Shown: positions 16,689 to 58,168, numbered from the stretch's first letter. The stretch is 64,000 nt of DNA from Vulgatibacter incomptus (GCF_001263175.1 NZ_CP012332.1:3614220-3678219); one strand, 5' to 3'. The notes: generated by a model from the letters alone, not told the origin. A program made the numbers and translations.

Positions 16689-18182
16689 TCAGAAGACCGT
16701 GCCGTGTTCCACGCGCAGCGACCGCGTCGTGACGTGAGCAGCGAAGGTGTCGTCGTGGGTGACCAGCACGACGGCGCCTGGATACCCCTCGAGCGCCGCC
16801 TCCAAGCGCTCGACGCTCGGCAGGTCCATGTGGTTCGTTGGCTCGTCCATCACCAACGCCCAGACCTGCCCAGCGAGTGCCTCAGCGAGCACCAGTTTCC
16901 TCGCTTCTCCCGGCGAGAGGTGAGCGGCCTGGGCTCGGAGCACGCGCTCGGGCTCACTGCCCAGCGCGGCGAAGATCGACAGGACGCGACCGCGCTCTTC
17001 GGGTTTGAGCCCGTGAAGGCGCGCCAGGGCTTCGGCCTTCGCTGCGTCCGAGAGCTCTTGGGGCAGGTACAGCATGCGCTCGCGTCGGGCGTAGGACGCG
17101 ACCAGCGCTTCGAGCAGGGTGGTCTTCCCCGCTCCGTTGGGCCCCTCGATGCGCACGCGGTCCTCGCGACCGATCGTGATGCGAACATCGTAGAGCACGG
17201 GATGTTCGCCACGCAGCACGACGTCCTCGCCCACGTGGAAGAGGATTGGGCTCGGGGCACGTTCGAAGGTCGCGAAGATCTTCCCTCCGAGCGTCGGATC
17301 TCGCTCCACGGTGGGGACGTCCCGCTGGGCGCGATCCAGCTCCGTGCGAGCGGCCGACGCGACACGCCCCGCTTTCGACGCAGCCCACTGTGCCTTCGTG
17401 GTCGCGAGGATTCCGCGAGCGTCGCTGTCGTGCCGATTCTTCATGCGCGCTCGCGTACTCGCGCCCTTCGACGCGGCGGCCTGCGTCCGACGTGCCGCGT
17501 CGAGTTGGGCCTCCGCAGCGCGCACCCGATCCTGCGCAGCCGCGTGCGCCGCGTATTGCTCGGCTTGCGCCTGCTCCCAGAGCGCCTTGGCGTCGGAGAA
17601 GCGCCCTGGCCACAGCGTCACGGTGTTGCGGTGGATGCGGAGCGTTGCGGTGGTGAGCGCGTCGAGGACGGCGCGGTCGTGGGAGACGACTACGCCCAGC
17701 CCCGTGAATCGCCGCAGGGCTCCAAGCAATCGCTTTCGCGCGTCGACGTCGAGATGGTTGGTCGGCTCGTCGAGGAGCAGAACGTCGGGTTCGCGGGCGA
17801 GCGCGGCGCCGATCTGCCATCGCTTCCGCTCGCCGGGCGAGAGCGTCGCCCAGCGATCGAGCTCGCCGGGGTCGAGCGAAAGGCGTCCCCGCAGCTCGGC
17901 CGCGACGCCGTCATCCCGTGCAGCGAGGGCGTCGATGTCTTCATCTCGGCCCTCCACTTCTTGCCGGCAGTACGCGACGACGGCGTTCTTCGGTGTGAGG
18001 ACGACGGTGCCTTCGTGTGGGGCCCGCTGGCCAGCGAGGATAGAGAGCAGCGTGGTCTTGCCAGCGCCGTTGGCGCCGACGAGCCCATAGAAGCCGCCGT
18101 CGAGCGTGAGGGAAACTGATTCGAAGATGGGAGCAGACGCCGCCCAAGCGACGCTGACTCCGTGCAATCGAAGCACGGACAT
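16689..18182 (-). CDS. ABC-F family ATPase (two ABC ATPase domains, no TMD)
   Basis: There are two Walker A sites, 'GANGAGKTT' and 'GPNGAGKTT'. The signature/linker region is charged ('AQAEQYAAHAAAQDRVRAAEAQLDAARR'). Confidence 0.85.
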   Translation of the reverse strand: MSVLRLHGVSVAWAASAPIFESVSLTLDGGFYGLVGANGAGKTTLLSILAGQRAPHEGTVVLTPKNAVVAYCRQEVEGRDEDIDALAARDDGVAAELRGRLSLDPGELDRWATLSPGERKRWQIGAALAREPDVLLLDEPTNHLDVDARKRLLGALRRFTGLGVVVSHDRAVLDALTTATLRIHRNTVTLWPGRFSDAKALWEQAQAEQYAAHAAAQDRVRAAEAQLDAARRTQAAASKGASTRARMKNRHDSDARGILATTKAQWAASKAGRVASAARTELDRAQRDVPTVERDPTLGGKIFATFERAPSPILFHVGEDVVLRGEHPVLYDVRITIGREDRVRIEGPNGAGKTTLLEALVASYARRERMLYLPQELSDAAKAEALARLHGLKPEERGRVLSIFAALGSEPERVLRAQAAHLSPGEARKLVLAEALAGQVWALVMDEPTNHMDLPSVERLEAALEGYPGAVVLVTHDDTFAAHVTTRSLRVEHGTVF

Positions 18183-22512: not shown

Positions 22513-23748
22513 ATGGAGAGAATGCGACCCGGACCAACGAAGAACGACAAGCGATCCCTCCCGCCCGGCGGCACCCCTGACCTCCAGGACGCCACTTCGG
22601 ATCCTCGCGGCAAGGCCAGGAGCGCGCGCTCCGACAGGCCCAAACGTCGGAGGCGCAGGGTGCGCCTGCCAGGCCCGACCTTCCCCGGGTCCCCCGCTGG
22701 GATCGAGAGCACGCCGCTCGTCGACGTACCCCCTGAGCCAGGTGCCGTCTCGATCAGCTGCGTCGACTATGGGCCCGACCGCGCGAGCGCCTTCGACGTT
22801 CCGGACCTGGAGGCCTTCCTCTCGCGGCCCAGGCCCGAGTGGTCGGCGGTGCGGTGGGTGAACGTGGCTGGCCTCCATCCCCAGGTCATCAACCGATTTC
22901 GCCAAGCCTACGGCTTCCACACGCTCGCGGCCGAGGACGCACTGAAGGTCCCGCAACGCCCCAGGGTCGAGCCATATCCCGACTTTCAGTTCATCGTCGC
23001 CAGCATGTTCCGGCAGGTGGACGGCAAGTTCACCTCGGGTCAGGTCAGCGTCTTCTTCTATGGGAACATGCTCCTCACCTTCCAGGAGGAACCGGACGGC
23101 GCCGAGGCGTGGTCGACGATCCGGCAGCGTATCCAAGCATCAGGCTCCACCCTGCGACAGGGTGACGCCGGCTTTCTCCTCTATTCGATCCTCGACGCCC
23201 TGATCGATCACATCTTCCCGGTGGTCGAGCACTACGGTGACCTCTTGGAGACGCTGGAGGATCGGATCATCGAAGAGCCAACCACCGCACTCTCGGGGGA
23301 GCTCCACTCCGTCAGGCGAAAGCTGCTGGAGCTTCGGCGGATGATCTGGCCGATTCGGTTGATGATCCACGACCTGCAATCCAGCGATTCCCCGAACCTC
23401 TCGTCGACGGTGCGCACCTATCTTCGGGATGTGCACGAGCACTCGGTCCAGCTGATCGACGTGATCGAGACCTACCGTGACATGGCCTCCGGCATGATCG
23501 AGCTCTACCTGTCCGCAGTCTCGTACCGGATGAACGAAGTGATGAAGGTCCTCACAATCATCGCCACGATCTTCATCCCGATCACCTTCCTCGCGGGCGT
23601 GTTTGGCATGAACTTCAAGGTGATGCCCGAGCTGAACTGGGAGTGGGGCTACGCGCTCTTCTGGCTGATCTGCATCGTCACCGTCGTCGGGCTGATCCGG
23701 TTTTTCCGCCGCAAGGGCTGGATCGGGGAGGGCCAGGTGTCGAAGTAG
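22513..23748 (+). CDS. corA: CorA-family magnesium/cobalt transporter (with an Arg/Pro-rich N-terminal extension)
   Basis: The C-terminus reads 'IIATIFIPITFLAGVFGMNFKVMPELNWEWGYALFWLICIVTVVGLIRFFRRKGWI', which includes the GMN motif and two TM helices. The start codon is uncertain. Confidence 0.75.
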   Translation: MERMRPGPTKNDKRSLPPGGTPDLQDATSDPRGKARSARSDRPKRRRRRVRLPGPTFPGSPAGIESTPLVDVPPEPGAVSISCVDYGPDRASAFDVPDLEAFLSRPRPEWSAVRWVNVAGLHPQVINRFRQAYGFHTLAAEDALKVPQRPRVEPYPDFQFIVASMFRQVDGKFTSGQVSVFFYGNMLLTFQEEPDGAEAWSTIRQRIQASGSTLRQGDAGFLLYSILDALIDHIFPVVEHYGDLLETLEDRIIEEPTTALSGELHSVRRKLLELRRMIWPIRLMIHDLQSSDSPNLSSTVRTYLRDVHEHSVQLIDVIETYRDMASGMIELYLSAVSYRMNEVMKVLTIIATIFIPITFLAGVFGMNFKVMPELNWEWGYALFWLICIVTVVGLIRFFRRKGWIGEGQVSK

Positions 23749-24084
23749 CTGCGCTCGACACGACCGGGGAGCAGCTCCATACGATCGGTCCCTCCACATC
23801 CGTCGGCGCTCGAGCTCGGCGTCGCTCGGCCGGCATCACGGCGGTATTCTGGCGGCGTGTCCTGCGATCGCTGGTGGCACCAGCGGACGACAAGACCGTC
23901 TTCCTCGAACCGCGAGTGCCGCAGATCGTCGGCACCCGCTTGCTTGCCGGGAGCCCCGATGCAGCTCGGACTCGACCTCGCGCACCCCGGGACCACCGAA
24001 GATCAGCTCTCTTGCAGTGGCTTTGGATCGACGGCCGTCTTACGACTCGATGGATCGCTGGATTTCCATATGATGTTCGCCGCT

Positions 24085-24250
24085 AGGTCCACGAACGCGC
24101 CGCCCTGCTCGCTTCTTCGGCTGGGAGAGGAGCGAACGAAGGAGAGCTGCTTTTTCGTGGATGAAGTGCGCGCGGAGGCTCGCCGGTTCCCCTTGCCAGG
24201 GAGATTGCCGCCTGCTCGCTCCTCGGGGCGCCTGCGCACGCGCTGGCAGT
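24085..24250 (+). repeat. Copy A of a roughly 150-bp non-coding repeat (about 85% identical to 30275-30440)
   Basis: Manual alignment of the conserved core: gccctgctcgct(t)cttcggctgggag.g.agcgaacga.ggag.gtgcttt..gtggatgaagtgcgcgcggagg.tcg.cggtt.c...gccaggg...ttg.cgcctgctcgctcc.cgggg.gcctgcg.acgcgc. Confidence 0.5.
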
Positions 24251-24339
24251 AGGTCCGATGAGGGAGTTCCTGCGTGGGTAAGGGCCGAAGTGGGCTTGAT
24301 CCGCCCTCGTGGACCTCCTGTGGGAGGGTGCGGTGAGTG

Positions 24340-27300
24340 TCACGGGTGCCGTGCAACCACCGCGGAGTCGAGCAGCACGAAGAGATCGGAGAGATCCTGT
24401 CGAGCCTGCGCGGGCGCCGAGCCGAACACGACGGCGACGTAGCGGAGGAGTTTTCCGCCGACCGTACGTTCGATGATCGCGCAGTCGTGACTGAAGCTGT
24501 CGTCGCCGAAGCCGATCTTCGAGGCGAGCGTGTCCGGCGCTCGCCCCACAGCGGTGAGGGCGGTTCGTGCGTAACTGCCGATGCCACCACCCATCTGATT
24601 CATGAGCGCACGCATCTCGGTCGACGAGGAGCTACTCAGGAGCTTCCCATTCGCCATCGCGGTAAGAAGTCGCGACACCTGCAACGCGTTGCCGACGAAG
24701 TTGCTCTTGCTGCGCCCTTGCGCCGTGGCCCACCGAGGTGTGAGGGCGATCCCCGCTGCGTTCGAGGCCTTCTCCGCTGCGTTCCTTACCCAGTCGTGAC
24801 CGTCGTAGTCTCCGGAGATCCACAGGCCTTTGCTCGTCGCCGCATCGAAGTATCCGGACCGGGCGAGCACTCCGTTGAGATAGAAGTAGCCAAGCGCGAG
24901 GATGCAATTGCTCGCTGCTTGATTGTTCGACCAGCGCATCATCGTGCGCATCCATTCGTGGAACAGGCCGGTCGGAGCTCCGTTCTCGCCGACGGCATCG
25001 ATGCTCGCGTCGGAGACCATGGGTGAGGTGATTGAGAAGTCGACCACTCCCGTCGGAGAGACCGTGAAGATCCGGTCGAATTTGGGAACGGTCACGTCCT
25101 GGTTGTTCCCAAAGCTCGTCGTCGACTTCGTGGGGAACATCGCCTTGAGCTTCGGTCGCCACGCGTTCTCGATGACCCCGAAGATCGCGGGCGCCGCGAA
25201 GGGCTCACCGTTCGCCTTCGCCGCATCGACGAACGCCTGCACTCGTTCTCGCAGCGCGAACGCCGCGTACATCACGCAGAGTTTCATGAGACTGCCGACG
25301 AAGACCATCTCCTCCTCGTGAAGGCCGGCGAACGCCGCGCTCGCCGGAGCGCCTGTGACGTCGGCCAGTCCCGCGCAGAGATGGTTCGCCGTGCTGACGG
25401 TGACAGGCGCGAACGCCGTGGTCATCGAAGGGTCGTTGCGCACGAGATTGACGACCCCAGGGGGAGGGAACGGATCGATCGCGTCGGCCCACGCCGGAAC
25501 GGGGACCGGTGCCGCGCCGCCGCCCATCGCGGCGCCACCACCACCACCACCTCCTCCCCCGCCATCGGCCGCGCCGCCCTTGAGGGCCGTCTTGACCAGG
25601 TCGCCCGCGGGCATGCCGAGCGGACCGTAGAGGGCCTTGTTGAACGCCGCGGCGCCGTCACCCCCAATCGCGCCCGCTATCGGCGCCGACGTCCCCGCCC
25701 CGCTCTCCCCGCCTCCGCTCCCGCCGCCGCCGCCGCCGATCGGAACGCTGCCGTCGGCCCCCGCGGCAGCGCTCGCCGCAGCCGCGTCGCGTTTTTCGCC
25801 GTGTGCGACCCGCGCGGCTTCCGCAGTGACGCTCTGATTGGCGCCCCCGCTCGACGGCGCACCGAGCGCCGCCTTCACGATGTCCGCCGCGATCTGACCC
25901 ATCGCTACCGACTTCTGCATCTCGGCGCGCATGTTCGAGCTCGCGACCTCGGCGGCCGCAGTCGCAGCGTCGATCGTGCCCTGCGCCACTTGACCCGCGA
26001 GATTCTGCGTGCCGGCCAAGCCGCTCATGTCGCGGAACATGTTTCCGTTCGACACGGCCGTGAGCACCGCTCCGAGCCCGGCCGGATCGGGCAACGACGT
26101 CGGCGTGACGATGTTGAGCACGGGCTGACCGAGCTGTCCCGGTCGGAGGTCCTCCGAGGTGGCGCGCGAGCCGGTCGAGACCGGCGCGATCTCTGGCAGT
26201 GTGAGCGGGATCGGAGAGTCCTGCCAGTTCCAGAAGCGCGTGTACTCGAGCTTCTCGGCGCTGTTGGATCGACCCAGCACCGCCTCGGCGAACACTCCAT
26301 TCGTGGGAATGGGGATGACGCGCGAATCCGGCTCGACTCCAAAGTCGAAGCCTCGGTTCTTCAACAGGTCGCTCCACGTCGCCTGGCGCCCGTCTTCCGT
26401 CACCCCCGAAGGCTCATCGGGATCGACGGGGGCGCGCAGGACGAGGAAGTTGCCGGCCACAGTGAGCACCTTGGGCTCGACCTGATCGATCACGGGGCGA
26501 CCGTTCCAAGTGAATTCGCTGAGCAGGAGCACGAGCGTCGCACTGTCGAGGGACCGGGCGATGGCCTGCGCATAATGCGCGTTGTTGGCCTGCAGATGGG
26601 CCAAGAGCTCGCGTCTACGATCAGCCTGGTCGGTGCGGAACTTCGCGACCTGAGTGACGGCCGTGCCGAGCTCCACTGGCACGGAGGGCAGCGTGAAACG
26701 GCGGCCGAGATAGGCGCACAACAAGGTCATCTGGCCCGATCCCTGACTCCCTTCGCTACGCGACGCGTAGATCCCATCGAGCTCACCCATGCGCACGCCC
26801 GCTGGGAGATCGACGCGGCCATTCACGACCGTGAGATCGACGTCCGCGGCAGCCGAGTCGACGCGATCGAGGCGCAGATTGGTCACCGTGACGCCCTCGA
26901 AGCTGATCGCGAGGAGCTCGGTTTCATCCGGCACGAACAACGAGTCGGAGCCGGGTCGCACGATAGGGCGCGCGACGAAGCGCGAAGCGCTGGCGAGCTC
27001 GGCTCGGTCCCAGGCACGCACACGAATCCCTACAGTTTCGGGCGGGACCTCGGTAGCCGTGGCAGGCGCGACCGTCGCCGCGGCCGTCGGCTCGCTCTTC
27101 GCGATCATGCTTGCACGAAGAACGGCACTCATCTTCACCAGATCGGGACGTCCAGAGGGCACGACGATGCGCGAGCTCGTTGCGCTGATTTCGACGGCAG
27201 ACGTGTCGTCGAGCAAGAGCTCGAGCGCGCGGCGGTTCAGCGCCGCGCGCCCGAGAGCACCGCGGAAGCGCTCGACGTATTGCGCACCCAAGGGGCCGGC

Positions 27301-28611
27301 GAAGTCGAGGCGCTCCATCGGAATGAAGAGACAGCGCTCGGCTCGATGCAAGCGCGTCGCCACCCGATACACCTGAACGATCTCGTAGTATTGAATCGTC
27401 AGCGCGTGCATGTGGTTGTAGTTCGCCACGATGCGGGTGCTGACCTGCTCGTGTTCGCTCTGTGAGACCTCGCGCACCGCGGTCGCGCGGCGATTGCGGA
27501 CCGACGTGCTGTGCTGCTCCGTGCGGTCGTTGATGTTCTGCTGCATGGAAGCCGCCACCGAGCGATTGCCCACCGACCACGAGGAGGAGCTCGCCGTCGT
27601 GTCCGTCGTGGCCCCCTGCAACGACCCCGAGGCGTCCCCGCTCGCCCAGAGACTGGTCAGAAAGCCCGTTCCGACGGAAGCTTGCGCGCTGTAGCTCGTG
27701 GAATCCGCATGGGAGGAGGAGGTCGATCCGCCTTCTTGCATTTCGCTCGCTACAGCGTCCTGGACTTCGCTGAGCGCACGCGTGTGAAGCGCCGCGGAGG
27801 CGAGCTCCTCGGTCTCGCTGATGGTTTCCGACGATGTCGCGCTCGTTCGACGAGCCCAGTCGACGATCGCGATGCGGGTCGCCTCTCCTGGAGCGAGGGC
27901 GAGCGAATGCAGGAGGTGACCGAACGTGATTCCCTGCGCGTACCACGACTGTGAGTACGTCATCAGCGCGCCGATGGCGGGCTTCGTGAAGCCGTTCCGA
28001 TCGGCGAGCACCGCGTCGAGCGAGACGCCACCGTCGAGTGGCCTCGTTCCCTGCCCCGTCGTCTCGTTCATCTGCAGCATGACGAGTGTCGTGTAGTAGA
28101 CGCGCTCCGTCGGAAACTCGCCAAAGGTCGGGCGCAGCTTCTCGGTCAGGATCGCGTCCCGGTCGTCCATGCTGCCGCCAATTGAGCCGCTCACGAGTCG
28201 CTTGGCGAATAGATAGGGAGGCCACTGCGCGAAGTCGCGAAGGGTCGTGACGTTCAACGCCTGGCTGATCGCCGCGGCTTGAGCCGGGTCGAGCATGCGG
28301 AGCGCAGCGAGAGGCAGCGTGCCCATCGCCTCCACCGACTCGATCGCGATCGCATCGTCCAACAGGTCGCCGGGCGCCATTCCGTACTGGGCGGCAGCCC
28401 CCATCTCGTCCTTCGCGAACGCGGCGACGCGCGCGGCGGCGAAGAGCCGCGAGCAGCCGAGATCGAAGATCGTCTTGATGCCGAGAGGTGCCAAAGCCGT
28501 GGCGGCATCCGGCGACACGGAAAGCAGTTCGGTGAAAGGCTGTTTGAGCAACTCGGACGCATCGAGATGCGCGCTCGTCGAGCGCACGAATTCGCCAGTA
28601 CCGTTCATCGC
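24340..28611 (-). CDS. Giant multidomain protein (about 1420-1449 aa). It has an N-terminal roughly 1050-aa region of unknown function with a Ser/Thr-rich alternating segment, then a poly-Gly linker, then a C-terminal serine-hydrolase domain of the beta-lactamase/transpeptidase superfamily.
   Basis: The ORF is continuous, with no signal peptide. The Gly-rich linkers are 'GGGGGSGGGESGAG' and 'GGGGGGGGGGAAMGGG'. The C-terminal domain has 'GSLMKL' (SxxK), a downstream 'YLN' (YxN) and 'KIGFG' (KxG), spaced like class C/PF00144 enzymes. An alternative start is at 28689. Confidence 0.7.
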   Translation of the reverse strand, partial: AMNGTGEFVRSTSAHLDASELLKQPFTELLSVSPDAATALAPLGIKTIFDLGCSRLFAAARVAAFAKDEMGAAAQYGMAPGDLLDDAIAIESVEAMGTLPLAALRMLDPAQAAAISQALNVTTLRDFAQWPPYLFAKRLVSGSIGGSMDDRDAILTEKLRPTFGEFPTERVYYTTLVMLQMNETTGQGTRPLDGGVSLDAVLADRNGFTKPAIGALMTYSQSWYAQGITFGHLLHSLALAPGEATRIAIVDWARRTSATSSETISETEELASAALHTRALSEVQDAVASEMQEGGSTSSSHADSTSYSAQASVGTGFLTSLWASGDASGSLQGATTDTTASSSSWSVGNRSVAASMQQNINDRTEQHSTSVRNRRATAVREVSQSEHEQVSTRIVANYNHMHALTIQYYEIVQVYRVATRLHRAERCLFIPMERLDFAGPLGAQYVERFRGALGRAALNRRALELLLDDTSAVEISATSSRIVVPSGRPDLVKMSAVLRASMIAKSEPTAAATVAPATATEVPPETVGIRVRAWDRAELASASRFVARPIVRPGSDSLFVPDETELLAISFEGVTVTNLRLDRVDSAAADVDLTVVNGRVDLPAGVRMGELDGIYASRSEGSQGSGQMTLLCAYLGRRFTLPSVPVELGTAVTQVAKFRTDQADRRRELLAHLQANNAHYAQAIARSLDSATLVLLLSEFTWNGRPVIDQVEPKVLTVAGNFLVLRAPVDPDEPSGVTEDGRQATWSDLLKNRGFDFGVEPDSRVIPIPTNGVFAEAVLGRSNSAEKLEYTRFWNWQDSPIPLTLPEIAPVSTGSRATSEDLRPGQLGQPVLNIVTPTSLPDPAGLGAVLTAVSNGNMFRDMSGLAGTQNLAGQVAQGTIDAATAAAEVASSNMRAEMQKSVAMGQIAADIVKAALGAPSSGGANQSVTAEAARVAHGEKRDAAAASAAAGADGSVPIGGGGGGSGGGESGAGTSAPIAGAIGGDGAAAFNKALYGPLGMPAGDLVKTALKGGAADGGGGGGGGGGAAMGGGAAPVPVPAWADAIDPFPPPGVVNLVRNDPSMTTAFAPVTVSTANHLCAGLADVTGAPASAAFAGLHEEEMVFVGSLMKLCVMYAAFALRERVQAFVDAAKANGEPFAAPAIFGVIENAWRPKLKAMFPTKSTTSFGNNQDVTVPKFDRIFTVSPTGVVDFSITSPMVSDASIDAVGENGAPTGLFHEWMRTMMRWSNNQAASNCILALGYFYLNGVLARSGYFDAATSKGLWISGDYDGHDWVRNAAEKASNAAGIALTPRWATAQGRSKSNFVGNALQVSRLLTAMANGKLLSSSSSTEMRALMNQMGGGIGSYARTALTAVGRAPDTLASKIGFGDDSFSHDCAIIERTVGGKLLRYVAVVFGSAPAQARQDLSDLFVLLDSAVVARHP

Positions 28612-28910
28612 CATCCCCCGGGCGAGTCTACCGATTCGCCGCGCATGCCAGTCAGATCGAGCTTGGCAGCGCCGCCGCATCGTACCCACGGCACGCGTCG
28701 CTCACCAAGCGACCGGCGCGTCGTGACGAGCGGGCTCGTCGAGAGCACGACGCTCGACGCTCGAGGGTGTTGGGAACGGTACAATGGCAGACGCACCCGG
28801 AACGTCGAGCTCGGACCGCCGGGTCTCGATCCGGCTGACGTCGGGGAGATCGTCCACAAGCCGATTCAGGCGGCGCTCGAGATCGAGCGCATCTTCCTCT
28901 CTGCGCGCGA

Positions 28911-31298: not shown

Positions 31299-32704
31299 TC
31301 AGTCACGTACCTCGGGGAGGACGCTGTTGACTGCCGCCCGACCCTTGTCCGTCGCGGTGACCGTCTCGAGGAGCTGGACGATGTTCGAGCCGAGCTTGGC
31401 GCCGAAGGTGTCCATCAGCGACCGGGCCCCGCTCTGCACATCGGAACCGTTGGCGACGATGGTCATCTTCGCTGCGGACATCGCCTGGGCCAGCGCGATG
31501 CCCACGGCTTGGTCGGCCTTCACCTGCTCGATGGTCACCAGGTACTTCTGGTAGCCCTCGTCCTTGCCGATCTTCTCGGCCAAGGTGATCTGCGCGGTGA
31601 CTGGCGCCATCAGCATCTTTTCCTGGGCCTCGGCGTTTGCCTTGCCCTTGGCCGCGATGCCTTCCGCTTCCCTCATCGTCGCCGCCAGCGCGCCCTCCGC
31701 CTTGGCCGCGATTCCTTCCGCTTCCCTCATCGTCGCCGCCAGCTCGCCCTCCGCCTTGAGCTCGACGACCTTGCGCGCTGCCTCCGCGTCGACCACCTGC
31801 ATCTCAGCGGCCCTCCGCGCGGCGATGATGGCGGTCTCCTTCTGGATCTCGGCCTTCTTAACCTCCTGGACCTTCATGACCTCCATCTCCCGCTCGGCGG
31901 TGGTCTTGGCGGAGGCCTGGACCTCCTGCTTGGCCTTCTCCCGCTCGATACCGACGATGCGCTCCTGCTCCGCGGTACGGATGCCGATCTGCTGCTTCTT
32001 CTCCTGCTGACGAAGCTCGATCTCCCGGGAAGCCTCGATCTCGGCTGCTTCCGCGGCCCGGTTGTTCTCCGCCACCGCTACACGGGACTCCTTGTCGATA
32101 CGGGATTTGTCCTTCTCCATGATCTTGGAGATGACCTCGGAGCCCCTCGCATCCCGGATGTCCATGAACTCGATGGTCTTCACGGTCGTCACGCCCCACT
32201 CCCTGAGCTGAGAATCCACCTCTCCGGTGAACGCTTGCCCAAGGGATCCGCGGGCTTCCATGATCTCCTCGAGGGTGTGGGTTGCCAGGATGCGTCGCAC
32301 GGAACCCTGAAGGATGGCCTTCAACTGATTGGCGAGCTCCTGGTAATGGTCGATCCGCGTAGCTGCCATCGACGAATCGCTGATGCGGAAGAACGACGTT
32401 ACGTCCACCACGAAGGGCAGACGGCGGGAATCGTACGCCTCGTAGTCCGTGAGGCTGACGCTGAAGTTGGCTTCAGGCAGGCGGCTGACGACGACACCGA
32501 TGATCGGGAGCCAACTCGGCCAGGCGTAGTAGACGTTGCCAGACTTGCTGCTGCGGCCGTAGGAGACGGCTCCCGCCTTCGACTGGACGATGTGCACCAT
32601 GTTGGTGGGTACCACCGTACGCAGCTTGAGGATGGTGATGGTGAGGACCGCGAAGGCGAACAGAGGGACTACGATCACACCAACCGCAACAACTGGAAAC
32701 ATAC
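31299..32704 (-). CDS. Flotillin / SPFH (band-7) family protein
   Basis: N-terminal membrane hairpin 'MFPVVAVGVIVVPLFAFAVLTITILKL', an SPFH core, a long Glu/Ala-rich coiled coil with a 48-bp tandem duplication (EAEGIAAK.AEGALAATMR x2), and a flotillin C-terminus. No NfeD partner was found upstream. Confidence 0.8.
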
Positions 32705-32994
32705 CGTCTTCTCCGACGTGAATTTCAACTTCATGTACTTGTTCTACCCGTGGATCGAACGGCCTTCGTCGAGATCCGCCCGCACCGTAGGTCGGATCGC
32801 CAACGCCCTCGGTTGCTTCGGGGCCATGGCCGATCTGACCACTATTCAACCATGGAGATCCATACGCCGGGGAAACTTCTCCATCACTGAGCGTCCTATC
32901 GGCCGGACGGGGACGCTCAAGCCCGCGAGAAGCCTCATCTCGGCACGCGGCGAAACGGCTTGCCCCGCTGGGGCGCTCGGGCAAGGCTGGTGAC

Positions 32995-34140
32995 ATGGCG
33001 CACGCCGCCCCTCCGAAGACGCGCCGTTGGGTGCCCCTGCTCGCCGTGGCGTCGCTGGCCATCCTCGCGACGACCGTCTTCGCCGTTGGTTTGAACCCCT
33101 CCACCACGGAGCACCTCTCGGTCATGGGCGATGACGATGCAGTCCAGGTGCACATCGGCGAGCAGAATCGACGAGGCACCACCAAGGCTGACCACATCCC
33201 CGCGTACCGCGCGCGGTTCGACCGCGACCCGACGCCCGAGAACGGCTTCCTCCTTGCCCGCCTCCTCCCGGCAGCGGAGTCGGAGGCTCTGGTCCTCCGC
33301 CTCCTCGCCGATCACCCCTACAACCCGTGGTTGCTCCGCCTGGGCGCAAGGCACCACCTGCGCGCGAGGCGCTGGAGCGAGGCGGTGCGCGCCTACGAGA
33401 GGCTCGTCCAGGTCTCGCCCGCCGACATCGTCAAATCGTTCGAGCTGCGCGCCACCGCTCTCGCGGGCGCAGGCCGTGCGGAGGAAGCTCTGTGGCTTGC
33501 GGACCGGCTTCCTCTCGGTGGCGCTCACTTGAGGGTGGCGCTCACCTACGCCCGACTGGTCAAGCTCGTCGGCGCCGGGGACCCGAGCGGCTACGTAAAG
33601 CGTGTGTCCCAAAGCGAAACGCTGCCGCCTGGCTTCCTCGCGAGCTTCGAGACCCTCACCGGAGGCGACGCCCTAGCCGAGATCACCGCCATCGCAGGGG
33701 CGCCCGAGCGCAAGGCCCGTATGGTCGAGCGCGAGGCGCTGCGCAAGCCGTGGTCGGCTCTCGCGCTCCTCGCGCAGGCGCCCGAGGGGACCGCCGGCGA
33801 GCTCGACCTGGACGTCGCGGTCCTCCTCCTCGGCGCCGCTGAGGGCGCGAAGCTTTCCCGCGTACGCGACCAGCTGGTCTCCGCGCTCGAGGAACACGGC
33901 CCGCCGTTCCTCGACTACATCCGCACCGGAAGAGAAAACTCCGCCACCGACGAGCTTCCGCCCGCGGGCCTCGCCGCCATCCACGTTGCCCGCGCGTTGA
34001 CATTGGATGGGAGCGAGCGCGACGCCCTGCTCTCACTCGCGAGGCAGGAAGACCCGCTCCGCGGCGTGCCCAGTCTCGCGGCGGAGGAGCTCGAGGGAAA
34101 GGCTCCCAGGAGCACCCCTTCCAGCAGCAAAGGGAGCTGA
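32995..34140 (+). CDS. Membrane-anchored TPR-like / hypothetical protein
   Basis: Signal-anchor 'WVPLLAVASLAILATTVFAV'. It is Ala/Leu-rich and helical-repeat-like. It is divergent from flotillin. Confidence 0.55.
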   Translation: MAHAAPPKTRRWVPLLAVASLAILATTVFAVGLNPSTTEHLSVMGDDDAVQVHIGEQNRRGTTKADHIPAYRARFDRDPTPENGFLLARLLPAAESEALVLRLLADHPYNPWLLRLGARHHLRARRWSEAVRAYERLVQVSPADIVKSFELRATALAGAGRAEEALWLADRLPLGGAHLRVALTYARLVKLVGAGDPSGYVKRVSQSETLPPGFLASFETLTGGDALAEITAIAGAPERKARMVEREALRKPWSALALLAQAPEGTAGELDLDVAVLLLGAAEGAKLSRVRDQLVSALEEHGPPFLDYIRTGRENSATDELPPAGLAAIHVARALTLDGSERDALLSLARQEDPLRGVPSLAAEELEGKAPRSTPSSSKGS

Positions 34141-42058: not shown

Positions 42059-42444
42059 CGGCCGCACCTCCAGGACCGCGCTTGCCGCGTCTCGTGATTG
42101 GATGCCGACGGAGGCGACCAAGCGGTTGCTCGGGAGAACTGCGGCGGCGCTCGTGGTGAAGATGACCGCGTCCGCGTGCCCGATTTCGATCGCTCTTCGC
42201 TGGGCGCGATCCTCGACGGCTGGCTGAGCGGCCCGCCTAGTCGAGCCGCTGATCCCGCGGACGGGAGATCTTTGAGGACCTAGAACATCAACCTCGAAGC
42301 CTACATGGGCGACGCTCTCCGCGTCCTCGAAGGATCGGTACCTCGAGCTTGCTCCGAAATACTGGCGCGACCGCCTGCCGCCCTTTGGGATCTTGTCCCC
42401 GCCGGGTAATCTGTGCCCGCCCCAACCGCCCGGAGGCCGTCCGC

Positions 42445-43962
42445 TTGAACCCCGCCTCGCCCCCCTTGCGCCTGTTCGATCAGGTTCAGGCCTTTCAGTA
42501 CGTCGTGGCGGAGAAGGCCCCGATTTACCGGGCGATCGTCCAGGTCTTCTCCGAGGCCCGGCACCACTACGTCATCGAACTGCGACCGGCCGAGGTGCTC
42601 GACCGGATTCGCGCCGCCGGGATCTTCGTCGCGCTCGGGCCGGACGAGACGCTCGACTACTACCTCGACATGCTCGTGAAATGGGGCAACCTCGCCTCGG
42701 CGCAAGACTCAGCGACCGTGACGAGGCTCGAGGACTTCTATCGCAAGCGACTCCTCTATCGGCTGACGCCAGCGGGAGAGGCGGCACATCGAGCGGTCGC
42801 AGAGGTCGAAGATGCGATCGGCCGCTCGGGTAGGCTCCAGGCTTCGATGCTCGTCAAGATCCGCGACGAGCTCCGCGAGCTCACAGGTGACCGTGAGCCA
42901 TCGGAGCTGGTCGTCGGCCTCCACGACCTGAACGCGGCGTTCGAATCGCTCACGGAGGAGGCAAACCGATTCATCGGTGACCTCGATCGGCCAACTGGGG
43001 CCAAGCGGATGGACGAAGAGCGCTTCACCTTCTACAAGCGGGCGCTCCTCGCGTACATCCACCGCTTCGTTGGCCAGCTCCGACTCCTGGGAGACGAAAT
43101 CCGCGCGTTGATCGATGGGATCGACGCTGAGGCGCTGATCGATCGCGCGCTGCCCGGTGCCGAGCTCCCGCCGGCACGGGACGACGCGGATCCACGGGCG
43201 GACTGGCGCGCGGAGTGGCTGGCGCGGTGGACGGGGATCCGCGCATGGTTCGTGGGCACCGCCAGCTCGATGCCGACCGTGGAGCGGCTCGCGGCCGTCG
43301 CGGTCGAGGCGGTCCTGGGCCTCACGCGCTCGCTGGGTCGGCTGAGCGGCGCGAGCGCCCGCTCGATGGATCGCGCCGCGGACTTCCGCGTCCTTGCGCA
43401 CTGGTTCGGCCGTTGCCCTGACGATCGCGCGGCGCACGGCCTCTGGCACGCGGCGTTCGGCCTCTCGACGGGGCGACACTTCCACCTCGAGTCCAACGTC
43501 GAAGGCGCGCCATCCTGGTGGGATGCGGCCCCAGTTGAGGTCCCGGTGCGGCTGCGCGAGCGGGGCCAGGTCGCCGTCGCCACCGGCCGGGCGGGCGCGA
43601 TCCCGGACTACAGCGCGGCGCGGCAGTGGCTGGAGCAGAAGCGCAGGCAGGAGCGGGCGCAGCTCGACGCGGCGATCCGCCGGCTCTCGGGCGAGTTCGA
43701 GCTGCGGGACGTCGGGCGCCTCGACCCCGCCGAGTTCGATCTCTTCCTCGCCCTCCTCGATCAGGCGCTCGCCGCCCCGAAGGAGGGCGACGGCTCGCAG
43801 TCGGCCCGCACGATCGACGGGCGCGTCAGGATCCGCCTGACGCCGCCAAAGGATGACGAGCTCGTGGTCCTCGAGGCGCCGGGAGGCCGACTATGGTGCC
43901 GCAACCACCACCTCGAGGTGTCCGCCGTCGAGGGCGCGGCCTGGCGCTCGGAGGCCCGATGA
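42445..43962 (+). CDS. jetA: Wadjet type II JetA-like protein (TIGR02677/DUF2397-type), first gene of a four-gene operon
   Basis: GGAGG RBS plus TTG start. It is about 505 aa. Its stop overlaps the next start (ATGA). Position and size fit the conserved TIGR02677-78-80-79 neighbourhood. Family assignment is by context and was not verified by search. Confidence 0.6.
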   Translation: MNPASPPLRLFDQVQAFQYVVAEKAPIYRAIVQVFSEARHHYVIELRPAEVLDRIRAAGIFVALGPDETLDYYLDMLVKWGNLASAQDSATVTRLEDFYRKRLLYRLTPAGEAAHRAVAEVEDAIGRSGRLQASMLVKIRDELRELTGDREPSELVVGLHDLNAAFESLTEEANRFIGDLDRPTGAKRMDEERFTFYKRALLAYIHRFVGQLRLLGDEIRALIDGIDAEALIDRALPGAELPPARDDADPRADWRAEWLARWTGIRAWFVGTASSMPTVERLAAVAVEAVLGLTRSLGRLSGASARSMDRAADFRVLAHWFGRCPDDRAAHGLWHAAFGLSTGRHFHLESNVEGAPSWWDAAPVEVPVRLRERGQVAVATGRAGAIPDYSAARQWLEQKRRQERAQLDAAIRRLSGEFELRDVGRLDPAEFDLFLALLDQALAAPKEGDGSQSARTIDGRVRIRLTPPKDDELVVLEAPGGRLWCRNHHLEVSAVEGAAWRSEAR

Positions 43963-45140
43963 GCCGCCTCGTCCAGGTGCTCGAGGACGACGAGCGCGCA
44001 CAGCGCGTCGCGGCGATCCGCGCCCTGCTCGCGTCGCCCCTCCTGTCGGCCTCGAGCGACCCGGAGATCTTCCGAACCGTCGTCCGGCAACGCGCGTACC
44101 TGACCGAATGGTTCGCGAGCCATCCGGGCTGGCGGCTGGTGATCGATCCCTCCGGCGGCTACGCGCGCCTCCACAAGGTCCCCGGGCGCAGCGACACGAC
44201 GAAGCCGGCCCGCCGGGCCGACGGTACGCCGTTCGATCGCCGGCGCTACGCGCTCCTGTGCCTCACGCTCGCGGCGCTCGACGACGCGCCGGTGCAGACC
44301 ACCGTCGGCCGTATCGCCGCCCTCGTCGAGGAAGCCAGCGCGGACGACGAGGAAGGGGTCGCCTTCGATCCTTCGCTCGCCGCTGAGCGGCGGGCCTTCG
44401 TCGACGCCCTGCGGCTGCTCGTCTCGCTGGGCGTCCTGCGCGTGCGGGACGGAGACGCCGATCGCTACGCGCATACGCGGGAGGGAGACGCTCTCCTCGA
44501 CGTAAACGAGCGCGTGCTCGGCCAACTCCTTGCGGCGCCGATCCCTCCGGTCTTCGCCGGGACCCCGGAGGGCATGCTGGACGAGCAGCTCCCGGACACG
44601 GACGAGGGCCAGCGGCTCTCGGCCCGCTACCGGGTGATCCGCCGCCTGCTCGAGGATCCCGTGCTCTACTACGACGACCTCGACGCGCGCGCGTTCGACT
44701 GGCTCGATCATTCCCGTGGCTTTCTCTACGCCCTCCTCGAGGACGACGTCGGGATGCCGATCGAGCGCCGCAGGGAGGGCCTCGCCGCCATCGATCCGGA
44801 GGGCCTCGTTACGGACGAGCGCTTCCCCGACGGCGGCTCCACCGTCCGGCACGCGGCGCTCCTCCTCGCGTCCCACTTGGCGAAGCAGGGGGAGCGGGAC
44901 GTGGCCGTGGAGCGCGGAGCGCTCGTCGAGGTCGTCACCGCGCTTCAGGCCGATCATTCCGAGCGCTGGAGCAAGCAGTACTCCGCCGACGAGCAGGGGG
45001 CGGCGCAGCTCTGCGAGGAGGCCGTCGCGTTGCTCGAGGCCTTCGGTCTGGTGCGGCACGAAGGCGATGGGCGCCTCCGCGTCCGGCCGGCCGTCGCGCG
45101 CTTCTCGCCCGGCGAGCCGAAGAAAAAGAGGGCACGATGA
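43959..45140 (+). CDS. jetB: Wadjet type II JetB-like protein (TIGR02678/DUF2398-type)
   Basis: 393 aa. There are ATGA overlaps at both ends. It is acidic, as kleisin/MukE-like subunits are. Confidence 0.6.
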   Translation: MSRLVQVLEDDERAQRVAAIRALLASPLLSASSDPEIFRTVVRQRAYLTEWFASHPGWRLVIDPSGGYARLHKVPGRSDTTKPARRADGTPFDRRRYALLCLTLAALDDAPVQTTVGRIAALVEEASADDEEGVAFDPSLAAERRAFVDALRLLVSLGVLRVRDGDADRYAHTREGDALLDVNERVLGQLLAAPIPPVFAGTPEGMLDEQLPDTDEGQRLSARYRVIRRLLEDPVLYYDDLDARAFDWLDHSRGFLYALLEDDVGMPIERRREGLAAIDPEGLVTDERFPDGGSTVRHAALLLASHLAKQGERDVAVERGALVEVVTALQADHSERWSKQYSADEQGAAQLCEEAVALLEAFGLVRHEGDGRLRVRPAVARFSPGEPKKKRAR

Positions 45141-58045: not shown

Positions 58046-58168
58046 TGATCGGTTACAGTACGCCTGAGCAATACCGCCCACAACCGAAATCAATGCGCTC
58101 TCTCGATTCGGTTCGAGGTCGCGTTCGACGGAGAGTCGGGCACCGGATGGAGCGCGAAGGCCGACGAA

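What the first reader, a model, noticed from the sequence alone, without database searches (positions are those of the whole stretch)
24340..28689. Orphan 1449-aa protein with a large unknown N-terminal module, poly-Gly linker and a C-terminal beta-lactamase-fold serine-hydrolase domain
There is no signal peptide. The N-terminal roughly 1050 aa include a long Ser/Thr-rich alternating stretch ('STSYSAQASVGTGFLTSLWASGDASGSLQGATTDTTASSSSW'), which recalls amphipathic beta-hairpins. After that come Gly10-type linkers. The C-terminal roughly 370 aa carry SxxK ('SLMK'), YxN ('YLN') and KxG ('KIG') at class-C/PF00144-like spacing. A delivery module plus linker plus enzymatic C-terminus is the grammar of polymorphic toxins or effectors. 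A PBP-like domain could act on peptidoglycan. I could not assign the N-terminal region to any family.
Basis: partly seen in the sequence, partly recalled or inferred. Interest (0 to 1): 0.75.

Follow-up and report, generated by a model that had tools for sequence, protein, structure and literature searches.

The report
Widespread modular cell-wall toxin-like protein
This Vulgatibacter gene is not an orphan: it belongs to a large, unnamed family found in bacteria and some archaea, in which one conserved 940-residue front end of unknown fold is joined by a floppy linker to dozens of interchangeable enzyme "warheads" (here a penicillin-binding-protein-like serine hydrolase), most probably a self-contained antibacterial toxin.

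Summary
The ORF is real (24340-28689, minus strand). Its true start is almost certainly M28 (window 28608), giving 1422 aa. It is not an orphan. The N-terminal 941 aa form a conserved module found in at least 3,113 protein clusters (50% identity) and at least 279 species, from many bacterial phyla to the haloarchaeon Haladaptatus. No Pfam, NCBIfam, PHROG, PADLOC, PDB or viral-structure match exists for this module. Homology breaks sharply at about aa 968. A Gly/Ala-rich linker follows, then a swappable tail; I counted 45 tail types among 191 members. Recognisable tails are mostly peptidoglycan-directed: Amidase_2, Amidase_6, DUF2272, Hedgehog/M15, OmpA and this beta-lactamase-like domain. The gene is always solitary, with no secretion system, phage genes or family-wide immunity gene nearby. 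One tail type does carry a conserved downstream partner. Best reading (about 0.45): a secretion-system-independent polymorphic cell-wall toxin. How it is delivered is unknown.

The parts
24340..28689 (-).
   Evidence: One search lists it. GC3 is 0.81.
24340..28608 (-). Most likely real coding sequence: ATG at M28, 1422 aa, with GGGGGA 6-11 nt upstream
   Evidence: The NCBI model P0001 is 1422 aa and nearly all homologs align from query residue 28.
28180..28608 (-). N-terminal helical domain with two helix-hairpin-helix-like motifs (LGIKTIFDLG, LNVTTLRDFA); optional in distant relatives
   Evidence: AF2 pLDDT is 84-92 and the domain is all-helical. The profile hits the HhH motif of DNA polymerase IV at E about 1. 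The Psychrobacter relative hits PF12836 HHH_3. Distant relatives start at about aa 151-211 of the N-module (module numbering, M28 = 1).
27190..28122 (-). Conserved core A (ORF aa 190-500): the most conserved part, rich in long beta-strands and invariant Arg/Glu/Gln/His
   Evidence: Invariant columns are. AF2 predicts strands of 15-18 residues but with pLDDT below 50. No PDB or viral match.
27574..27726 (-). Ser/Thr-rich alternating hairpin (ORF aa 322-372) with a hydrophobic tip GFLTSLW
   Evidence: The column-by-column profile across 48 homologs shows conserved S/T/A/G alternating with variable polar or charged residues. AF2 places two 17-residue strands here.
27406..27423 (-). Near-invariant NYNHMH motif (ORF aa 423-428), within ANYNHMHALTxQYYE
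   Evidence: N396, N398 and H401 (module numbering) are invariant even in the 28-sequence, 25%-identity alignment. The motif served as a scan pattern that recovered 279 loci.
26620..27189 (-). Fast-diverging beta-rich middle domain (ORF aa 501-690)
   Evidence: Many homologs match in two stretches, about 5-475 and about 660-940. Middle regions fall into 29 clusters, 274 of 339 in one. AF2 is confident here, pLDDT 80-90. The S. clavuligerus relative carries a Tectonin lectin hit at aa 363-464 of its 1023-aa protein; I estimate from BLAST offsets that this falls in the middle region.
25786..26619 (-). Conserved core B (ORF aa 691-968), including the invariant motif GVFAEAVLGRSNSAEKLxxTRFWNWQDSPIP (26200-26298) and a ~50-residue Ala-rich helix
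   Evidence: Invariant columns are. Motif coordinates were verified.
25483..25785 (-). Gly/Ala-rich linker (ORF aa 969-1069), containing Gly10 (25534-25563) and a short island AAAFNKALYGPLGMPAGDLV (25594-25662)
   Evidence: Homology with most relatives ends at q968. Composition is 35 G and 26 A of 101. Related short motifs recur in linkers of unrelated tails.
24343..25482 (-). C-terminal class A beta-lactamase / PBP-A-fold serine hydrolase cassette (ORF aa 1070-1449)
   Evidence: PF13354 at E 3.4e-6. AF2 pLDDT 96.6. Foldseek against PDB puts class A enzymes and PBP-A on top at E about 2e-8, probability 1.0. 55 homologs occur in other architectures.
25282..25293 (-). SLMK = SxxK motif (nucleophile Ser1133, Lys1136)
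   Evidence: S64 and K67 are invariant in 41 family members. Coordinates verified.
24922..24930 (-). SNN = SxN motif (Ser1254), equivalent of class A SDN
   Evidence: S185 is invariant. It aligns to S130-D-N of TEM-1.
24511..24519 (-). KIG = KxG motif (Lys1391), equivalent of class A KTG
   Evidence: K322 and G324 are nearly invariant. The motif aligns to KTG of LRA-5 and to KSG of TEM-1.
23749..24339 (.). Downstream intergenic region before the convergent CorA gene: no credible immunity ORF
   Evidence: The only ORF (23649-23996, minus strand) overlaps the CorA 3' end, has no Pfam hit and has no homolog downstream of related genes.
28609..28910 (.). About 300-bp upstream intergenic region after the Tag glycosylase gene; no sigma-70 or LexA-box match

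Best explanation
The gene encodes a member of a large, unnamed family of single-polypeptide polymorphic toxins or effectors aimed mainly at the bacterial cell wall.

Shown:
- A conserved ~940-aa N-module. It comprises an HhH-like helical head, a highly conserved beta-rich core with a Ser/Thr-rich hairpin and a hydrophobic tip, a fast-diverging beta-rich middle domain, and a second conserved core with a long helix.
- A low-complexity Gly/Ala linker joins this module to an exchangeable C-terminal cassette.
- In this protein the cassette is a class A beta-lactamase/PBP-A-fold serine hydrolase with intact SxxK/SxN/KxG motifs.

Inferred:
- The cassette acts as a DD-peptidase-type enzyme on peptidoglycan stem peptides, not as a beta-lactamase. 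It appears to lack the Glu166 deacylation base, as do PBP-A and LRA-5.
- The N-module supplies everything else: target binding (middle domain) and passage across a membrane by oligomerisation, with insertion of the hairpin or its hydrophobic tip.
- This would explain why no signal peptide, secretion system or partner gene is needed, and why the family works in Gram-negative, Gram-positive and archaeal producers.
- Release from the producer is probably by lysis or vesicles.
- The producer is safe because the substrate is outside its cytoplasm.
For: - Architecture: all homologs share aa 28-968 at 40-76% identity and then diverge. There are 31 tail clusters in 120 close homologs and 45 in 191.
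- Tail content: tails recognised by Pfam are Amidase_2, Amidase_6, DUF2272, OmpA, Peptidase_C70, ATLF, tyrosinase, DUF3238, beta-lactamase2 and Hedgehog-N/M15 at E 9e-52. Amidase_6 and DUF2272 are grouped with the T6SS amidase effectors Tae3 and Tse1 in PMC10318531. Several unassigned tails carry HExxH.
- Cassette mobility: the same C-domain occurs in 55 other proteins, either standalone or fused to hemopexin, M15_4, an S1-protease-like module or lectin-like modules. None of those I inspected has a signal peptide.
- Immunity-like partner: one tail type has a homologous ~144-aa ORF immediately downstream in 5 loci from different taxa, with pairwise E between 4e-5 and 4e-75, most at or below 5e-12.
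- Arrays and decay: tandem paralogs occur in L063, and an IS element splits the module from its tail in L098.
- Archaeal members: intact 1357-aa Haladaptatus proteins carry a DUF2272 tail although haloarchaea have no murein, which points to a foreign target. Archaeal PG hydrolases kill bacteria and most lack signal peptides (PMC12352652).
- Tail-less variants that end inside the linker exist in L026 and L085, suggesting the N-module has an activity of its own.
- C-domain: pLDDT 96.6, class A/PBP-A fold, invariant S/K/S/K. Val lies opposite Glu166. Among the closest PDB entries are LRA-5 and PBP-A, whose deposited mutants V166E and L158E imply the same natural gap.
Against: - No toxicity, secretion or activity data exist for any member; every source calls them hypothetical.
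- There is no signal peptide, TM segment or secretion-system neighbour, so export is unexplained.
- There is no immunity gene at this locus or at three other loci with the same tail.
- Neighbours in many loci are defence or MGE genes such as RM, TIR, SIR2, HEPN, PIN and Fic, which fits an immune role equally well.
- Legionella orthologs are conserved 82-95% across species with one fixed tail, which looks more like a stable function than an arms race.
- Tyrosinase and OmpA tails are not obvious toxins.
- The Glu166 assignment rests on a very low-probability hhalign alignment.
Confidence: 0.45

Rival explanations
1. Single-gene anti-phage (abortive-infection) or programmed-lysis protein. The cytoplasmic N-module senses infection, perhaps by binding DNA through its HhH head. 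It then oligomerises, breaches the inner membrane like a holin, and carries its tethered cell-wall hydrolase to the producer's own peptidoglycan, lysing the cell before phage release.
For: - The protein is cytoplasmic, with no signal peptide, and is always a solitary gene.
- Swappable effector domains on a conserved sensor are typical of defence proteins.
- No immunity gene is needed under this model.
- Neighbours are frequently defence or MGE genes: an RM system, nSTAND and MazE/PIN, ThsB_TIR and HEPN, SIR2, DUF262, TIR, PIN and type I RM.
- A Wadjet system lies 14 kb away in this window.
- The HhH head resembles DNA-binding motifs.
Against: - There is no PADLOC match.
- The Vulgatibacter locus itself is flanked by housekeeping Tag and CorA genes.
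- Haloarchaeal members carry a murein amidase-type tail that has no substrate in the producer.
- One tail type has an immunity-like downstream partner, which an autoinhibited suicide protein would not need.
- Tails such as Tae1/Tae3-like amidases are established offensive effectors.
- The family is well represented in Legionella and Coxiellaceae.
Confidence: 0.2
2. Domesticated or orphaned phage/MGE structural protein, for example an ejection or pilot protein or a virion-associated lysin that carries a wall-degrading domain to open the envelope for DNA passage.
For: - The lytic tail repertoire resembles endolysin and virion-lysin catalytic domains.
- The protein has an HhH DNA-binding-like head.
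- There is one weak hit in a phage-labelled fecal contig.
- Many copies sit on plasmids.
Against: - Only 1 of 50,697 phage records has a match, and that record is UNVERIFIED, at 26.6% identity.
- There is no PHROG hit and no BFVD structural match.
- No phage or conjugation genes are conserved next to it in about 95 loci.
Confidence: 0.05
3. Endogenous cell-envelope remodelling factor: a cytoplasmic or membrane-associated scaffold that positions a wall-modifying enzyme for the producer's own growth, division or development, not a weapon.
For: - Legionella-clade orthologs are conserved 82-95% with a fixed tail, which suggests vertical inheritance.
- The Vulgatibacter gene sits among housekeeping genes.
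- An OmpA-type peptidoglycan-binding tail exists.
Against: - The distribution is patchy: 279 of 185,579 species representatives matched the two exact peptide patterns, a lower bound.
- Copies are located on plasmids and near IS elements.
- Tail swapping is extreme.
- The family is present in murein-less haloarchaea.
- There is no export signal that would reach the wall.
Confidence: 0.1
4. The C-terminal domain is simply a beta-lactamase or resistance enzyme, and the fusion is incidental or an annotation artefact.
For: NCBI names the protein 'serine hydrolase'. There is a Pfam Beta-lactamase2 hit and class A enzymes are the top structural matches.
Against: - There is no signal peptide, so the domain cannot reach the periplasm by Sec or Tat.
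- Identity to class A enzymes is only 11-16%, with about 100 extra residues.
- Val apparently replaces Glu166.
- The fusion is conserved full-length in at least 20 homologs from different taxa.
Confidence: 0.03

Closest known systems
Polymorphic toxin systems (Rhs/YD, CdiA, LXG, MuF, TANFOR etc.; Zhang et al. 2012, PMC3482391)
   Same: Both have a conserved N-terminal module, a sharp recombination breakpoint and many unrelated C-terminal enzymatic cassettes. The cassettes are shared with other delivery architectures. There are tandem paralogs, and at least one cassette has an adjacent small immunity-like gene.
   Different: The N-module matches none of the known trafficking domains or any Pfam model. 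There is no signal peptide and no link to T2/T5/T6/T7SS, eCIS or phage heads. Most loci, including this one, lack an immunity gene. The cassettes are biased to cell-wall enzymes and peptidases; I saw no nuclease or deaminase Pfam hits. The family is not mentioned in that survey.
Colicin / S-pyocin / pesticin-type protein bacteriocins
   Same: These are single soluble polypeptides without a signal peptide. They have modular binding, translocation and killing domains, a killing domain at the C-terminus, a diverging middle domain, and periplasm- or wall-directed warheads (colicin M, pesticin).
Class A beta-lactamases and PBP-A-type low-molecular-weight DD-peptidases (PF13354; PDB 2j7v PBP-A, 8eo5 LRA-5, CTX-M, TEM-1)
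   Same: The fold matches at Foldseek probability 1.0, TM 0.60-0.65 normalised to the target. SxxK, SxN and KxG are in register. The Pfam score is above the gathering threshold.
   Different: Identity is 11-16%, with about 100 residues of insertions. The SxxK to SxN spacing is 121, against 60 in class A by my own knowledge of class A numbering. There is no export signal. The domain is fused behind a 940-aa module. Val probably replaces Glu166, as the PBP-A L158E and LRA-5 V166E entry titles imply for those proteins.
Beta-barrel pore-forming toxins and translocases (aerolysin/ETX-MTX2, anthrax protective antigen)
   Same: The protein is soluble, with a conserved Ser/Thr-rich alternating hairpin and a hydrophobic tip set in a beta-rich domain, and a cargo enzyme to move across a membrane.
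   Different: One face of the hairpin is small residues (S/T/A/G) rather than hydrophobic. There is no fold or sequence similarity. Oligomerisation has not been tested. The cargo is covalently tethered rather than a separate A component.
T6SS peptidoglycan amidase effectors Tae1/Tse1 and Tae3 (DUF2272- and Amidase_6-related)
   Same: Sister members of the family carry these same catalytic domains as their tails.
   Different: Those effectors are small proteins loaded on a T6SS and paired with Tai immunity proteins. Here the domains are fused to the 940-aa module, with no T6SS nearby.

Membership tests
Class A beta-lactamase / PBP-A-like serine hydrolases (Pfam PF13354) | Pfam model score above the curated gathering threshold | tested here: met
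   27.0 bits against a cut-off of 22, E 3.4e-6, aa 1247-1421. Most family members are also flagged PF13354.
Class A beta-lactamase / PBP-A-like serine hydrolases (Pfam PF13354) | Two-domain alpha/beta + all-alpha penicillin-binding fold | tested here: met
   AF2 pLDDT 96.6, pTM 0.95. In Foldseek against PDB, 500 hits have E <= 1e-3. The top hits are GNCA4, CTX-M-14, LRA-5, TEM-1 and PBP-A, at probability 1.0 and TM 0.60-0.65.
Class A beta-lactamase / PBP-A-like serine hydrolases (Pfam PF13354) | SxxK nucleophile motif, SxN motif and KxG motif conserved and in register | tested here: met
   S64, K67 and S185 are invariant and K322/G324 are >=90% conserved in 41 sequences. KIG aligns to KTG of LRA-5. 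SNN aligns to SDN and KIG to KSG of TEM-1.
Class A beta-lactamase / PBP-A-like serine hydrolases (Pfam PF13354) | Omega-loop Glu166 general base for deacylation (defines true class A beta-lactamases as opposed to PBPs) | tested here: inconclusive
   hhalign places the invariant D-W on R164-W165 and Val on Glu166, but the alignment probability is very low. This is consistent with the nearest PDB relatives LRA-5 (V166E mutant entry) and PBP-A (L158E mutant entry).
Class A beta-lactamase / PBP-A-like serine hydrolases (Pfam PF13354) | Sec/Tat signal peptide for export to the periplasm | tested here: not met
   There is no hydrophobic N-terminal segment in the full protein, nor in the standalone relatives whose N-termini I read. 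No dedicated signal-peptide predictor was available.
   There is no PF00144 hit at E <= 1. All of the top 50 structural hits listed are class A enzymes or PBP-A. The invariant motif-2 residue is Ser of SNN; YLN lies 16 residues later.
Polymorphic toxin systems | Conserved N-terminal region with diverse, recombining C-terminal domains shared with other architectures | tested here: met
   The breakpoint is at about aa 968. There are 45 tail clusters in 191 members. The C-domain is found in 55 other proteins with different N-termini.
Polymorphic toxin systems | Cognate immunity gene immediately downstream | tested here: not met
   This locus has none, and there is no shared downstream gene among 4 loci with the beta-lactamase-like tail. 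The feature is met for one other tail type, a ~144-aa ORF in 5 loci.
Polymorphic toxin systems | Recognised trafficking or secretion domain, or linkage to a secretion system | tested here: not met
   No Pfam or NCBIfam domain is found in the N-module. There is no conserved neighbour in 77 loci. No T6SS, eCIS or phage genes appear in inspected contexts.
Polymorphic toxin systems | Toxicity of the C-terminal domain to target cells | not testable with these tools
   This needs expression and competition assays.
Beta-barrel pore-forming toxins (aerolysin / PA type) | Amphipathic insertion hairpin with one hydrophobic face | tested here: inconclusive
   The alternation is conserved, but it is between small S/T/A/G residues and variable polar or charged residues. 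Only the tip is hydrophobic.
Beta-barrel pore-forming toxins (aerolysin / PA type) | Structural or sequence similarity to a known pore-former | tested here: not met
Colicin/pyocin-type bacteriocins | SOS (LexA-box) regulation, plus lysis and immunity genes | tested here: not met
   CTGT-N8-ACAG occurs upstream in 1 of 77 loci and not in this window. No conserved partner genes were found. Only the gamma/beta-proteobacterial LexA consensus was tested.
Phage structural / virion proteins | Homologs in phage genomes or match to viral protein families or structures | tested here: not met
   There is 1 weak hit in 50,697 phage records, no PHROG hit and no BFVD hit at E <= 1e-3.
Known anti-phage defence systems (PADLOC-DB v2) | Match to a defence-system protein model | tested here: not met
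   0 families at E <= 1. The library dates from 2023.

The most novel reading that the evidence does not exclude
The 940-aa N-module is a new, self-sufficient protein-delivery machine. It would be a soluble protein that assembles into an oligomeric conduit, built from its conserved small-residue hairpins and long helices, and moves its own tethered enzyme across a membrane. It would need no secretion system, receptor family or partner gene, and would work from bacterial and archaeal producers alike. If so, the family's 45 or more tail types, most with no Pfam match, would be a large untapped catalogue of cell-envelope-active enzymes.
Probability: 0.3. Interest if true: 0.85.

Novelty: new variant of a known kind. 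Interest (0 to 1): 0.7.

Why it matters
If the reading is right, a family with thousands of sequence clusters, spread across most bacterial phyla and into haloarchaea, has escaped all domain databases and the literature I could search. It would be a secretion-system-independent route for delivering cell-wall-degrading enzymes.

Three things would follow:
- It would add a new delivery module to the polymorphic-toxin repertoire.
- It would supply dozens of unannotated enzymatic cassettes, candidate lysins or enzybiotics, most of them unknown to Pfam.
- It would give a concrete, testable example of how wall-active proteins without signal peptides reach their substrate. The archaeal peptidoglycan-hydrolase study left this question open, since 68% of those enzymes have no signal peptide (PMC12352652).

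For annotation, the result corrects 'serine hydrolase' or 'beta-lactamase family' labels on proteins that are unlikely to be resistance enzymes.

Tried and rejected
- Paralog check: the other large ORF in the window (54398-58093) is unrelated.
- C-domain: single-sequence phmmer against PDB gave only spurious dehydrogenase hits.
- Conserved neighbours: clustering about 3,000 flanking ORFs from 77 loci found only generic response regulators (8 loci) and the one immunity-like ORF.
- Downstream genes of four beta-lactamase-tail loci are not homologous.
- LexA boxes are absent. The promoter/terminator scan was uninformative.
- No Rfam or tRNA features were found in the window.
- Upstream genes of standalone cassettes in L096 and L097 are unrelated to the N-module.
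- Literature searches by concept and by locus tags of named members found no description of the family.
- Linker-motif regexes were too strict, matching 43 of 191 tails, so that stays a qualitative observation.
- The first representative search was rejected because the profile exceeded 1,200 positions. It was rerun with the single N-module.


Full report
**Observation**

The ORF at 24340-28689 on the minus strand exists and encodes 1449 aa. It has the codon-position GC pattern of real genes in this 67% GC window, with GC3 of 0.81. It is 100% identical to an NCBI protein annotated 'serine hydrolase [Vulgatibacter incomptus]' of 1422 aa.

Essentially all homologs align from query residue 28. An ATG with a GGGGGA motif upstream sits there. 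So the real start is most likely M28 (window 28608).

- the Ser/Thr-rich stretch at aa 330-371
- Gly10 at aa 1043-1052
- SLMK at aa 1133-1136
- YLN at aa 1270-1272
- KIG at aa 1391-1393

There is no signal peptide or transmembrane segment. The most hydrophobic 19-residue window is the buried helix that carries SLMK.

**Not an orphan**

A word-indexed search found more than 530 homologs. An exhaustive phmmer search of 1.84 billion cluster representatives found 3,113 clusters at E <= 1e-3 and 1,546 at E <= 1e-30.

A scan of one genome per species with two exact peptide patterns confirmed 279 loci. They include:
- Myxococcota, Pseudomonadota, Acidobacteriota, Gemmatimonadota and Verrucomicrobiota
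- Planctomycetota, Nitrospira, Bacteroidota and Chloroflexota
- Actinomycetota (Microbacterium, Streptomyces) and Bacillota (Paenibacillus, Pelosinus)
- at least seven Legionella species, plus Coxiellaceae and Rickettsiales

Plasmid records add Bacillus tropicus, Nostoc, Ralstonia and two strains of the haloarchaeon Haladaptatus. Almost every source label is 'hypothetical protein'; the few other names reflect the tail or are generic, and none names the N-module.

**Architecture**

Homology runs from aa 28 to about aa 968 and then stops abruptly in most relatives. After that point, 120 close homologs fall into 31 unrelated tail clusters, and 191 members fall into 45.

Within the N-module I distinguish these parts:
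- A confidently predicted helical head (aa 28-170) with two helix-hairpin-helix-like motifs. Distant relatives lack it. It weakly resembles ComEA-type and Pol IV HhH motifs.
- Core A (aa about 190-500), the most conserved region, which includes the near-invariant ANYNHMHALTxQYYE.
- A faster-diverging beta-rich middle domain (aa about 501-690). Many homologs match only on either side of it. In Streptomyces clavuligerus a Tectonin lectin hit lies at aa 363-464 of the 1023-aa protein, which I estimate falls in this region.
- Core B (aa 691-968), with the invariant GVFAEAVLGRSNSAEK...TRFWNWQDSPIP motif and a ~50-residue Ala-rich helix.

A 101-residue linker follows (35 Gly, 26 Ala) and contains a short ordered island. 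Similar short motifs occur in the linkers of unrelated tails, about 50 residues after the module ends.

**The Ser/Thr stretch**

Across 48 homologs the segment shows strict two-residue periodicity. Conserved Ser/Thr/Ala/Gly positions alternate with variable, often charged positions, around a hydrophobic tip G-[LF]-[LI]-x-S-L-[GWF]. AlphaFold places two 17-residue strands there, but with pLDDT below 50.

This is a conserved long beta-hairpin. However, it lacks the hydrophobic face of classical membrane-spanning toxin hairpins. A tightly packed oligomeric barrel or stalk with a membrane-seeking tip fits better than a simple transmembrane hairpin. That is inference, not a result.

**What the N-module is**

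The model is poor precisely in the two most conserved cores. That weakens the fold searches, and it is what one expects if those regions fold only in an oligomer.

**The C-terminal domain**

Pfam assigns PF13354 (Beta-lactamase2) above threshold and does not assign PF00144. With an alignment of 41 relatives the domain folds at pLDDT 96.6. Its best structural matches are class A beta-lactamases and the cyanobacterial DD-peptidase PBP-A, at probability 1.0 and TM 0.60-0.65.

The invariant residues are:
- Ser1133 and Lys1136 (SLMK)
- Ser1254 (SNN)
- Lys1391 (KIG), which is nearly invariant

KIG aligns to KTG of LRA-5. SNN and KIG align to SDN and KSG of TEM-1.

The same alignment puts Val opposite Glu166, next to an invariant Asp-Trp. 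Its probability is very low, so this point is tentative. It does agree with the closest solved relatives: LRA-5 and PBP-A were deposited as V166E and L158E gain-of-function mutants. I therefore infer a PBP-like DD-peptidase or related amidase/esterase rather than a beta-lactamase.

**The cassette is mobile**

The same domain occurs in 55 other proteins. In some it stands alone behind short acidic or Gly-rich leaders. In others it is fused to hemopexin, Peptidase_M15_4, an S1-protease-like module or lectin-like repeats. The N-termini I inspected show no signal peptide. In a Chloroflexi genome an IS element separates a divergent N-module gene from this tail.

**What the sister tails say**

Tails recognised by Pfam include:
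- Amidase_2, Amidase_6, DUF2272, OmpA, Peptidase_C70, ATLF, tyrosinase and DUF3238
- a Hedgehog-N/M15-type peptidase at E 9e-52 in Bacillus

PMC10318531 groups Amidase_6 and DUF2272 with NlpC/P60-CHAP amidases and cites the T6SS effectors Tae3 and Tse1. Several unassigned tails carry HExxH. Most tails have no Pfam match at all. The recognisable repertoire is dominated by peptidoglycan-cleaving or peptidoglycan-binding domains.

**Genomic context**

In the window the gene lies between a Tag DNA glycosylase gene (same strand, 300 bp upstream) and a convergent CorA gene, with a 590-bp gap that holds no credible ORF.

In about 95 other loci the gene is always solitary. Clustering about 3,000 flanking ORFs from 77 loci found no family-wide partner. 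No T6SS, eCIS, phage or conjugation genes were conserved next to it.

Many loci sit among mobile or defence-type genes: RM, ThsB_TIR, HEPN, SIR2, PIN, Fic, DUF262, integrases and IS elements.

Downstream genes of four loci with the beta-lactamase-like tail are unrelated to each other. One other tail type, however, is followed immediately by a homologous ~144-aa ORF in five loci from different taxa. Pairwise E-values run from 4e-5 to 4e-75, most at or below 5e-12, and the tails themselves are related. One locus has two tandem paralogs.

Tail-less versions that end inside the linker also exist.

No LexA boxes precede the genes.

**Interpretation**

The comparative pattern is that of a polymorphic toxin:
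- one conserved module
- a recombination breakpoint
- many cassettes shared with other carriers
- an occasional immunity-like partner
- a patchy, plasmid-rich distribution

The cell-wall bias of the cassettes points to bacterial targets outside the producer. So does the presence of intact murein-amidase-tailed members in murein-less haloarchaea. Archaeal PG hydrolases have been shown to kill bacteria, and most lack signal peptides (PMC12352652).

Because nothing else is conserved around the gene, the N-module must supply binding and translocation itself. A producer without an immunity gene would be protected simply because the substrate is outside its cytoplasm. I give this 0.45.

The main rival (0.2) is a suicide-lysis immune protein. 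It explains the cytoplasmic location, the missing immunity genes and the defence-island neighbours. It does not explain the archaeal members or the immunity-like partner.

I rate the other readings lower:
- phage-derived structural protein, 0.05
- housekeeping wall-remodelling factor, 0.1
- plain beta-lactamase, 0.03

The remaining probability covers functions I have not thought of.

**Novelty and limits**

I found no description of the family in the searchable literature or in any domain library. The search covers only open-access papers and preprints.

The kind of system (polymorphic toxin) is known. The delivery module, its independence from secretion systems and its phyletic breadth are new. 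I therefore class it as a new variant of a known kind.

The mechanism is inferred from architecture only. No activity, localisation or toxicity has been measured for any member.

Noticed in passing
window 42349-50373 (+): There is a complete type II Wadjet anti-plasmid system: JetA2 42349-43962 (E 9e-135), JetB2 43893-45140 (3e-120) and JetD2 49006-50373 (1e-124). JetC2 is split into two ORFs, 45137-47200 (model 6-706 of 1361) and 47606-49126 (model 849-1352). The ~400-bp gap coincides with a GC 0.728 / AT-skew +0.229 spike. This could be a frameshift, a pseudogene or a middle segment read in another frame.
   Followed up: partly
L049, L063, L071, L073, L095 (immediately downstream of the family gene); also L094: A homologous ~144-aa ORF with no Pfam match follows one related group of tails (a beta-rich ~170-aa domain with the motif VR[IV][WF]xGRGxxxLW). 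It is a candidate toxin-immunity pair.
   Followed up: partly
L096 5844-11212 and L097 2681-11455: Standalone versions of the beta-lactamase-like cassette end runs of 3-5 genes with no Pfam annotation. Cassette leaders and at least one upstream protein share an acidic 'ESPFL/SPFL' motif, which may be a packaging or targeting signal of an unrecognised system.
   Followed up: no
L098 5280-11425 (Chloroflexi bacterium UTCFX4): A divergent family member (1187 aa, different N-terminal 385 aa) is separated from a beta-lactamase-like tail gene by an inserted DDE_3/HTH transposase. This looks like a snapshot of cassette capture or gene decay.
   Followed up: partly
Linker of family members, about 50 aa after the N-module end (window 25594-25662 in this gene): Short ordered motifs recur inside otherwise low-complexity linkers, upstream of unrelated tails. 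They are of two types: 'FSRExAYADxxALGYSPDA' and 'ExxAFxxALxGxxG'. They may be a processing or docking site. Strict regexes found them in 43 of 191 tails, across at least 9 tail clusters.
   Followed up: partly
L011 8001-11318 (Bacillus tropicus plasmid JMTpXO): This family member has a C-terminal Hedgehog amino-terminal signalling domain (PF01085, E 9e-52) that overlaps a Peptidase_M15_3 hit. It is a bacterial Hh/DD-peptidase domain used as a cassette.
   Followed up: no
L012 8004-12077 (Haladaptatus sp. YSMS36 plasmid) and hit H4: Intact archaeal members of the family (1357 aa) carry a DUF2272 amidase-type tail. They sit on haloarchaeal megaplasmids among PIN, Fic and HTH genes.
   Followed up: partly
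L026 5980-8856 and L085 5905-8937: These are tail-less family members that stop inside the Gly/Ser-rich linker. That suggests the N-module can function, or be toxic, on its own.
   Followed up: no
window 54398-58093 (-), 31299-33197 (-), 16689-18182 (-): There is a 1231-aa protein whose only recognisable domain is a proprotein-convertase P-domain, a 632-aa SPFH/Band_7 protein, and a double ABC/AAA_21 ATPase with a mad3-like PADLOC hit. None is related to the target gene.
   Followed up: no
L013 7911-10982 (Streptomyces clavuligerus megaplasmid): This family member lacks the HhH head and carries a Tectonin lectin domain, apparently in the variable middle region. It is found in about 16 S. clavuligerus plasmid records.
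   Followed up: no
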